A stretch of 64,000 nt of DNA from a phage: sequence record PX393109.1; one strand, given 5' to 3'. This document shows positions 16,944 through 17,234 of this stretch, in pieces (positions within the stretch are counted from its first letter, which is position 1; each line of letters begins with the position of its first letter). Position numbers and translations under genes: made by a program. The notes below the pieces were generated by a model, which was not told the origin of the DNA, did no database searches, and worked only from the letters and a program-made list of their open reading frames with translations.

Positions 16944-17234
16944 ATGAAATTATCAGCTATTGGTGGGTTTCTACCGGTAATTATGGTGATCGTTATAATC
17001 TTCATTTTAAGCATCTTCATTTTAAGCAGGTGTTACGACGAATCTGGAGCAACTAAAACCCTAAATAACAGTGGATTCACCAATGTAACGATACATGGGA
17101 GATCCTGGTTTAAGTGCTCCAAGAATGGTATGTTCTCCACTAAATTTTCAGCAACTAGTCCTACTGGCACCAAAGTAACAGGAGCAGTATGCGGAGGATG
17201 GTTAGCTGGTAATGTAATCAGACTGGATGACTAA
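16944..17234 (+). CDS. membrane-anchored protein
   Basis: Start MKLSAIGG; N-terminal TM; contains a 15-bp tandem duplication (IFILSIFILS). Confidence 0.5.
   Translation: MKLSAIGGFLPVIMVIVIIFILSIFILSRCYDESGATKTLNNSGFTNVTIHGRSWFKCSKNGMFSTKFSATSPTGTKVTGAVCGGWLAGNVIRLDD

What the first reader, a model, noticed from the sequence alone, without database searches (positions are those of the whole stretch)
16999..17028. 15-bp tandem duplication inside a membrane-protein gene
atcttcattttaagc is repeated twice back to back, duplicating IFILS within the TM segment of the 16944-17234 product. This is a recent slippage event that would alter TM length.
Basis: seen in the sequence. Interest (0 to 1): 0.2.

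Follow-up and report, generated by a model that had tools for sequence, protein, structure and literature searches.

The report
Inherited 15-bp duplication in phage membrane anchor
A real five-amino-acid tandem duplication lengthens the membrane-spanning N-terminus of a small phage protein related to T4 gp39.1; several related phages share it, so it is an ordinary inherited variant and neither an assembly error nor a fresh mutation.

Summary
It is in frame and encodes IFILS-IFILS, residues 19-28 of the 96-aa product of 16944-17234. Chance expectation is about 1e-4 per window.

It is not an assembly artefact and not private to this genome. Four other public assemblies carry the same gene, 97.6-98.6% identical, all with the duplication. 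In two of them the second copy has a synonymous C>T change.

The window is an E. coli phage related to EP_H11 and vB_EcoM_IME392. Both of those lack the whole 291-bp gene.

The protein belongs to the uncharacterised T4 gp39.1 family (phrog_902). Most members have a short lipoprotein signal peptide, with an apolar run of about 13 residues and a lipobox L-x-[GAS]-C. Here the aligned Cys survives, but the residue before it is Arg (LSRC). The apolar run is 26 residues, or 21 without the duplication.

My reading is an uncleaved inner-membrane signal anchor derived from a lipoprotein signal. The duplication lengthened it further and was probably near-neutral. This is ordinary and of low interest.

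The parts
16998..17012 (+). Copy 1 of the 15-nt unit ATCTTCATTTTAAGC (codons 19-23, IFILS)
17013..17027 (+). Copy 2 of the 15-nt unit (codons 24-28, IFILS). It is identical here. In loci L003 and L004 it reads ATCTTTATTTTAAGC, a synonymous change.
16944..17234 (+). Gene for a 96-aa gp39.1-family (phrog_902) protein, stop codon included. The whole 291-bp gene is absent from phages EP_H11 and IME392.
16935..16939 (+). Shine-Dalgarno-like GGGAG, 4 nt upstream of ATG 16944. It supports this start. M-K is also the conserved family N-terminus.
16968..17027 (+). Predicted membrane helix, residues 9-28. The apolar run L3-S28 is 26 residues, or 21 without the duplication.
17022..17033 (+). Degenerate lipobox L27-S28-R29-C30 (TTA AGC AGG TGT). 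Cys30 aligns with the lipidated Cys of homologues. Position -1 is Arg, where the 87 canonical-lipobox representatives have Gly, Ala or Ser.
17034..17231 (+). Conserved C-terminal domain, predicted periplasmic: one helix and four beta-strands. C58 and C83 are conserved in 139 and 138 of 152 family sequences.
16940..16946 (+). Left junction of the gene-sized indel: TAATATG, made of the upstream gene's stop codon and this gene's start codon.
17232..17238 (+). Right junction: a second TAATATG, made of this gene's stop codon and the start of the next small ORF. Phages lacking the gene read GGGAGTAATTATGCC here.
17236..17340 (+). Neighbouring 34-aa hydrophobic ORF, stop codon included. It is conserved in all seven related genomes but is neither annotated nor called in any of them.

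Best explanation
The repeat is an in-frame 15-bp tandem duplication of the kind made by replication slippage or unequal exchange. It arose in an ancestor of a small group of E. coli phages and has been inherited since.

It lies in the N-terminal export and anchor segment of a 96-aa protein of the T4 gp39.1 family (phrog_902). This is a small protein whose conserved, two-cysteine C-terminal domain most likely faces the periplasm. In most family members the N-terminus is a short lipoprotein signal peptide ending in a lipobox. By the +2 rule these would be sorted to the outer membrane. In this lineage the lipobox is broken (Arg at -1, LSRC) and the hydrophobic stretch is long, so the segment most likely works as an uncleaved N-in/C-out signal anchor that holds the domain on the inner membrane.

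The duplication lengthened the apolar stretch from 21 to 26 residues. The stretch was already long enough to be an anchor, so the duplication did not create the anchor. It is tolerated and probably near-neutral. At most it reinforces non-cleavage and stable insertion.

Shown here: the duplication, its inheritance, family membership, the broken lipobox and the length statistics. Inferred: slippage as the mechanism, topology, non-cleavage, inner-membrane location and near-neutrality. The biochemical function of the family is unknown. A periplasmic binding or inhibitor role is only a guess from the fold.
For: - The repeat is perfect and far beyond chance.
- The same duplication is in P0001 (loci L003, L004) and P0152 (loci L008, L009). 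With the window that makes three alleles. The genes differ from the window at 4-7 of 291 nt, and the second copy carries a synonymous C>T in L003 and L004.
- L008 and L009 are only 95.9% identical to each other, so they are distinct phages.
- Of the 8 variable sites in the gene, 4 are synonymous and 4 are not, with no frameshift or stop, so the gene is maintained.
- Family membership: phrog_902 at E = 5e-19; tblastn matches in 1067 phage records, including genes annotated gp39.1 in CC31 and RB14; 845 cluster representatives at E <= 1e-3.
- In the alignment, Cys30 matches the lipobox Cys of LSGC, VAGC and LVGC in homologues.
- Of 152 aligned sequences, 87 have a canonical lipobox. Their apolar run has median 13 (10th-90th percentile 12-18), position -1 is G45/A25/S17, and position +2 is never Asp.
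- The 39 representatives without the Cys have median 20 (16-25), and the 23 with the Cys but no lipobox have median 19. The window protein has 26 with the duplication and 21 without.
- The AlphaFold2 model (mean pLDDT 80) has a helix at 9-28, then one helix and four strands.
- A review states that signal anchors have longer hydrophobic regions than signal peptides, and that lengthening the h-region converts a cleavable signal peptide into an anchor (PMC6589146).
Against: - No unduplicated allele was found anywhere, so the direction (gain rather than ancestral state) and the age rest only on the perfect DNA repeat.
- No signal-peptide, lipoprotein or topology predictor (SignalP, LipoP, DeepTMHMM) was available, so non-cleavage is inferred from a regular expression and length statistics.
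- I-L-S before R29 could loosely fit the -3/-1 rule of signal peptidase I.
- Arg29 sits on the supposed periplasmic side, so the positive-inside bias is weak (K2 against R29, with D32 and E33 after it).
- The nearest homologues are at most 57% identical, so descent from a lipoprotein ancestor is plausible but not proven.
- Five carriers sharing the duplication is explained by common descent alone and says nothing about selection.
Confidence: 0.7

Rival explanations
1. The long N-terminal segment is still a cleavable Sec signal peptide. Signal peptidase I cuts after I-L-S28 and releases a soluble periplasmic domain. The duplication merely lengthens a discarded leader.
For: I26-L27-S28 loosely fits the small or neutral -3/-1 rule (sequence). 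The family domain is evidently exported, given conserved C58 and C83 and lipoprotein signals in relatives.
Against: The apolar run of 26 residues (21 without the duplication) is far above the 12-18 seen in the cleaved lipoprotein-type leaders of the family. It matches the no-lipobox, no-Cys class, whose median is 20. Long h-regions convert signal peptides to anchors (PMC6589146). Arg at +1 is unfavourable for export, which I state from general knowledge and did not test.
Confidence: 0.12
2. The protein is still a lipoprotein. Lgt and LspA accept L-S-R-C, and the duplication only lengthens the lipoprotein signal peptide.
For: The Cys aligned with the lipidated Cys of homologues is retained in all three alleles. 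The n-region has the usual Lys.
Against: Position -1 is Arg. All 87 canonical-lipobox representatives have G, A or S there by construction of the test, and the -1 residues seen among the 23 Cys-retaining non-canonical representatives were A, G, S, T, N, L, F and V, with Arg only in P0099. The h-region is about twice the family's lipoprotein norm.
Confidence: 0.05
3. This is the first reader's reading taken strictly: a very recent slippage private to this isolate, or a sequencing or assembly artefact.
For: The two copies are identical in this window. Reads could not be examined.
Against: Four other assemblies from different samples carry it. Judging by contig names they were built with different assemblers, which is my inference. 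One allele has diverged between the copies.
Confidence: 0.03
4. The repeat is a DNA-level element that happens to overlap the gene, either a pair of protein-binding direct repeats or a copy-number-variable contingency tract.
For: Two perfect adjacent 15-mers could in principle bind a dimeric factor.
Against: There are no other copies in the window beyond chance: 6 matches at up to 3 mismatches against 2.1 expected, and the four outside the repeat all have 2-3 mismatches. No promoter-like or terminator-like site lies nearby. Copy number is 2 in all five genomes, and the unit is a multiple of three, so there is no frame switching. The one substitution seen within the repeat is synonymous, which is consistent with coding constraint.
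Confidence: 0.01

Closest known systems
Bacteriophage T4-type gp39.1 (for example RB14 ACP30648.1 and CC31 ADB81504.1); PHROG family phrog_902, function unknown
   Same: The C-terminal domain of about 65 residues is homologous: 42% identity over the full-length alignment with RB14 and CC31 gp39.1, 46-57% in the local tblastn matches across phage records (57% to the Vibrio phage homologues), and E = 5e-19 to phrog_902. The invariant Cys, C58, C83 and the G/F/T/R positions are conserved. It is a small accessory phage gene with an M-K N-terminus.
   Different: T4-type members have a leader of about 19 residues ending in a lipobox (LVGC, VAGC). The window protein has a 29-residue leader with LSRC and a 26-residue apolar run that includes the IFILS duplication. 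The genomic context also differs: beside gene 39/60 in RB14, and in a block of small unknown genes here.
The transmembrane-type subset of the same family (representatives without a lipobox, for example P0005, P0026, P0099)
   Same: They combine a long hydrophobic N-terminus (median 19-20 apolar residues) with the same domain. P0099 also has Arg at -1 before a retained Cys (GTRC).
   Different: They are only 33-39% identical to the window protein. None shows the IFILS duplication. At 26 residues the window segment is above the 90th percentile of that class.
Experimental conversion of cleavable signal peptides into signal anchors by lengthening the h-region, as summarised in Nielsen et al. 2019 (PMC6589146)
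   Same: The principle is the same: extra hydrophobic residues in the h-region favour an uncleaved membrane anchor.
   Different: Those were engineered constructs. Here the lengthening is natural, and even the unduplicated form (21 residues) was probably already an anchor. Nothing was tested experimentally.
Small phage-encoded periplasmic lipoproteins used for superinfection exclusion (T5 Llp; Cor of T1 and phi80-like phages)
   Same: These are small phage proteins exported with a lipoprotein signal that act in the envelope (abstracts listed). This is a functional analogy only.
   Different: No sequence or fold similarity was found, and phrog_902 is annotated 'unknown function'. No receptor-blocking role is shown. 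The window protein probably is not lipidated.
Cystatin-like, PepSY and VirB8-like alpha+beta folds (YpmB 2gu3, VirB8 2cc3, colicin M immunity protein 2xgl)
   Same: The domain has one helix packed on a four-stranded antiparallel sheet. Several of the matches are membrane-anchored periplasmic or extracytoplasmic domains.

Membership tests
T4 gp39.1 family / phrog_902 | Significant profile match to the family model | tested here: met
   phrog_902 at E = 5.3e-19, residues 13-94. A family HMM built here hits only this ORF in the window, at E = 1.6e-35, although the query itself is in that model.
T4 gp39.1 family / phrog_902 | Conserved C-terminal domain with the two-Cys pattern and the G/F/T/R positions | tested here: met
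   Positions L40, G44, G52, C58, T66, F68, A70, G75, G80, V82, C83, G85 and R93 are nearly invariant and all present.
T4 gp39.1 family / phrog_902 | N-terminal lipoprotein signal peptide (majority form, not universal) | tested here: not met
   The window has LSRC and a 26-residue apolar run. Only 87 of 152 aligned sequences have a canonical lipobox, so this feature does not define the family.
Bacterial lipoprotein (Lgt/LspA substrate) | Lipobox [LVI][ASTVI][GAS]C at the end of the leader | tested here: not met
   Position -1 is Arg29, codon AGG.
Bacterial lipoprotein (Lgt/LspA substrate) | Short h-region, about 12-18 apolar residues in this family's lipoprotein members | tested here: not met
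   The run is 26 residues, or 21 without the duplication.
Bacterial lipoprotein (Lgt/LspA substrate) | Lipid modification and globomycin-sensitive cleavage | not testable with these tools
   This needs labelling and inhibitor experiments.
N-terminal signal-anchor (bitopic, N-in/C-out) membrane protein | A hydrophobic helix of about 19 or more residues near the N-terminus | tested here: met
   The highest Kyte-Doolittle 19-residue window mean is 3.3 (2.8 without the duplication). The AlphaFold2 model has a helix at 9-28.
N-terminal signal-anchor (bitopic, N-in/C-out) membrane protein | No signal-peptidase cleavage, and the C-terminus in the periplasm | tested here: inconclusive
   No predictor was available. 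ILS|R could fit signal peptidase I, and the charge bias is weak. The exported nature of the domain is inferred from homologues and the conserved Cys pair.
Phase-variable or contingency repeat tract | Copy number varies among close relatives, or the unit shifts the reading frame | tested here: not met
   All five genomes have two copies, and 15 nt is a multiple of three.
Assembly or sequencing artefact | Absent from independent assemblies of related genomes | tested here: not met
   It is present in L003, L004, L008 and L009. Reads for this genome were not available.

The most novel reading that the evidence does not exclude
The gp39.1 family repeatedly switches one periplasmic domain between an outer-membrane lipoprotein tether and an inner-membrane helix tether. 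On this reading, the window allele is a transitional form caught in the act. It has a relic lipobox Cys, a Gly-to-Arg change at -1 that kills lipidation, and a tandem duplication that lengthens the h-region. Together these would move a phage envelope effector from the outer to the inner membrane. The gene itself also comes and goes as a precise cassette between related phages.
Probability: 0.3. Interest if true: 0.3.

Novelty: new member of a known kind. Interest (0 to 1): 0.12.

Why it matters
It matters little for biology at large. In-frame duplications in hydrophobic leaders are common and usually tolerated.

The modest value is threefold:
- The feature can be trusted as real sequence and need not be flagged as an error.
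- It annotates an otherwise 'hypothetical' ORF as a gp39.1-family envelope protein. It also shows that this widespread, uncharacterised family (more than 1000 phage records) exists in two tethering forms, lipoprotein and helix anchor. That could guide anyone trying to find its function.
- The gene is a precise presence/absence cassette among closely related phages, which is typical of accessory host-interaction genes.

Tried and rejected
**Searches for an unduplicated or three-copy allele (all empty)**
- A protein-guided scan and a gapped DNA pattern (GATCGTTATA N{15,45} AGGTGTTACGACGA) found nothing in viral contigs.
- Both also found nothing in JGI metagenome contigs.
- The DNA pattern found nothing in GTDB genome contigs.
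- blastn of the gene found nothing in GenBank phages or complete E. coli genomes.
- The word-indexed protein search returned only the 97% cluster.

**Function of the family (nothing found)**
- Pfam, NCBIfam and PADLOC gave no family for the domain. The only hits were noise or lipoprotein-leader models.
- A profile search against PDB sequences gave nothing significant.
- The AFDB50 fold library was unavailable.
- Literature searches for gp39.1 found nothing relevant. The T4 genome review was not held.

**Readings considered and rejected**
- A DNA-level motif or iteron.
- A promoter or terminator role.
- A paralogue elsewhere in the window.
- The upstream ATG at 16890 as the start. It overlaps the previous gene, lacks a Shine-Dalgarno sequence and breaks the family's M-K start.
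- The minus-strand ORF 16853-17020 as a real gene. Every annotated or called gene in the related records lies on the plus strand.

Full report
**Observation.** The sequence at 16998-17027 reads ATCTTCATTTTAAGC twice with no spacer, and base 17028 continues the match. Tandem Repeats Finder reports 16998-17028, period 15, 2.1 copies, 100% identity, score 62, the best-scoring array in the window. From the window's base composition, an exact tandem duplication of period 15-30 is expected about 9e-5 times in 64 kb. In 300 first-order Markov re-simulations, exact duplications of any period from 10 to 30 appeared 0.11 times per sequence. The repeat is therefore a real duplication and not a chance match. 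The 15-mer has no other close copy in the window.

**The gene.** The repeat lies in the plus-strand ORF 16944-17234, which encodes 96 aa. The ORF list shows a longer version starting at 16890, but three things favour ATG 16944:
- It follows a GGGAG Shine-Dalgarno sequence at 16935-16939.
- It comes two bases after the stop codon of the preceding gene.
- It gives the M-K N-terminus shared by homologues.

Gene callers chose the same 96-aa product in four related contigs. The duplication begins exactly at codon 19 and encodes I19-FILS23 and I24-FILS28. The following residues are R29-C30-Y-D.

**Which genome, and what relatives show.** The window is an E. coli phage. It is 92-94% identical to Escherichia phage EP_H11 (OP688485) and about 96% identical to vB_EcoM_IME392 (MH719082) over tens of kilobases. 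Both relatives align up to window 16943 and resume at 17235. They therefore lack exactly the 291-bp gene. In the window the gene is bracketed by TAATATG on both sides (stop/start junctions). The empty sites read GGGAGTAATTATGCC. The gene is thus a precise presence/absence cassette in this phage group.

**Is the duplication private or an artefact?** It is neither. The protein database holds one 90% cluster with two members, P0001 and P0152. Both are 96 aa and both contain IFILSIFILS. They are encoded on four contigs:
- L003 (ENA ERZ28620751)
- L004 (ENA ERZ27280788)
- L008 (ENA ERZ13616891, a 112,979-bp contig, i.e. genome length)
- L009 (Logan SRR24079945)

At the DNA level, L008 and L009 have two perfect copies and four substitutions elsewhere in the gene. 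L003 and L004 have seven substitutions, one of which is a synonymous TTC>TTT in the second copy. L008 and L009 are only 95.9% identical to each other, and all four contigs are about 92-93% identical to the window across the flanks. At least four distinct phage genotypes therefore carry the duplication. The duplication predates their divergence and has begun to diverge between copies in one lineage.

The gene (97.6-98.6% identical) sits at the high end of a mosaic identity profile that ranges from 80 to 99% in 100-bp windows. Its 8 variable sites split 4 synonymous to 4 non-synonymous, with no disruption. This is consistent with a maintained gene. No single-copy allele was found in any collection, so the age of the event relative to the origin of this gene lineage cannot be fixed.

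**What the protein is.** It matches phrog_902 (unknown function) at E = 5e-19. By tblastn it matches 1067 phage records, mainly T4-like phages of enterobacteria and several Vibrio phages. The matching gene is annotated gp39.1 in CC31 and RB14. An exhaustive phmmer search found 845 cluster representatives at E <= 1e-3, the best only 49% identical. No Pfam, NCBIfam or PADLOC family covers the domain. No paper on gp39.1 function was found.

**The N-terminus in family context.** In the Vibrio phiKT1024, CC31 and RB14 homologues, a leader of about 19 residues ends in LSGC, VAGC or LVGC, which are classic lipoboxes. That Cys aligns with Cys30 of the window protein. The 152 aligned sequences (the query, P0001 and 150 representatives) fall into three classes:

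| Class | Sequences | Apolar run, median (10th-90th percentile) |
|---|---|---|
| Cys preceded by a canonical lipobox | 87 | 13 (12-18) |
| No Cys at that position | 39 (40 before excluding one truncated N-terminus) | 20 (16-25) |
| Cys retained, no lipobox | 23 (25 including the query and P0001) | 19 |

- In the lipobox class, position -1 is G45/A25/S17. Position +2 is T or S in 75 of 87 and never Asp. By the E. coli +2 rule, which is established knowledge and was not tested here, this predicts sorting to the outer membrane.
- The Cys-without-lipobox class includes P0099, which ends in G-T-R-C.
- The window protein has L-S-R-C and an apolar run of 26 residues, or 21 if one IFILS is removed.
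- C58 and C83 are conserved in 139 and 138 of the 152 sequences. This fits an exported, disulfide-bonded domain.

**How it most likely works.** Signal anchors have longer hydrophobic cores than cleaved signal peptides, and lengthening the h-region is enough to turn a cleavable signal peptide into an anchor (PMC6589146). With a disabled lipobox and a 21-26-residue apolar helix, the window protein is best read as an N-in/C-out signal-anchored inner-membrane protein that displays the gp39.1 domain in the periplasm. The retained Cys, together with nearest homologues that are lipoproteins (57% identity, Vibrio phages), suggests descent from a lipoprotein form. A single GGG>AGG change would give the Gly-to-Arg switch, which is my inference.

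The duplication adds five residues, roughly 1.4 helical turns, to a segment that was already of anchor length. It did not create the anchor. It places the segment just above the family's 90th percentile. It is evidently tolerated, and whether it is beneficial cannot be told from five genomes related by descent.

**Rivals.**
- Cleavage by signal peptidase I after I-L-S28 is possible in principle, but the length of the apolar run argues against it.
- Continued lipidation is unlikely given Arg at -1.
- A private recent slippage or an assembly artefact is contradicted by the independent assemblies.
- A DNA-level role is unsupported.

**Limits.**
- No reads were available for this genome.
- No dedicated signal-peptide or topology predictor was available.
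- L003 and L004 are 99.9% identical and may represent the same phage population.
- That the contigs were built with different assemblers is inferred only from their naming styles.
- The function of the family remains unknown.

**Verdict.** It is wrong on 'recent'. The feature is an ordinary, inherited in-frame duplication in the signal anchor of a gp39.1-family accessory gene, and it is of low interest.

Noticed in passing
window 16944-17234, compared with L001 (EP_H11) 3542/3543 and L002 (IME392) 231/232: The whole 291-bp gp39.1-like gene is a precise presence/absence cassette. It is absent from the two closest GenBank phages and present in four metagenome or SRA contigs. TAATATG flanks it on both sides in the window, and the empty sites read TAATTATG.
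   Followed up: yes
window 17236-17340 (+): An unannotated 34-aa hydrophobic ORF (MLDGAGFLIVIGFFLGLLFCSFCVAMGWEIHPLW) is conserved in all seven related genomes. Most of its differences are synonymous or conservative. No annotation or gene caller reports it, and it has no PHROG or PADLOC match.
   Followed up: partly
window 16086-16464 (+): Two more small envelope-type ORFs lie just upstream. 16086-16295 has an N-terminal hydrophobic helix. 16246-16464 has a signal-peptide-like N-terminus (MKKILVVALLATSGMASA|S). The region therefore looks like a cluster of small membrane or periplasmic accessory genes. Neither ORF has a PHROG match.
   Followed up: partly
window 19752-19774 (and 19719-19742): A perfect 10-bp tandem repeat TTAGGAGATA x2.3 lies in an intergenic spacer directly upstream of ATG 19779. 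It duplicates a Shine-Dalgarno-like AGGAG. It is preceded by an inverted repeat ATAGAGCA...TGCTCTAT that could be a terminator-like hairpin.
   Followed up: no
window 26186-26212: A perfect (AAT)9 microsatellite encodes a run of nine Asn inside the small plus-strand ORF 26015-26269. It is a more slippage-prone tract than the one in the finding. Copy number in relatives was not checked.
   Followed up: no
whole window / relative MH719082 (IME392): A 2025 paper (PMC12686479) lists IME392 among phages whose DNA polymerase resembles that of YerA41, a group discussed in connection with hypermodified thymidine (5hmdU-derived). The window's phage may therefore carry modified DNA. This was not examined here.
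   Followed up: no
window 16555-16586: An imperfect 16-bp tandem repeat (2 copies, 81% identity) lies inside ORF 16473-16652 (phrog_8773, unknown function). It was not examined further.
   Followed up: no
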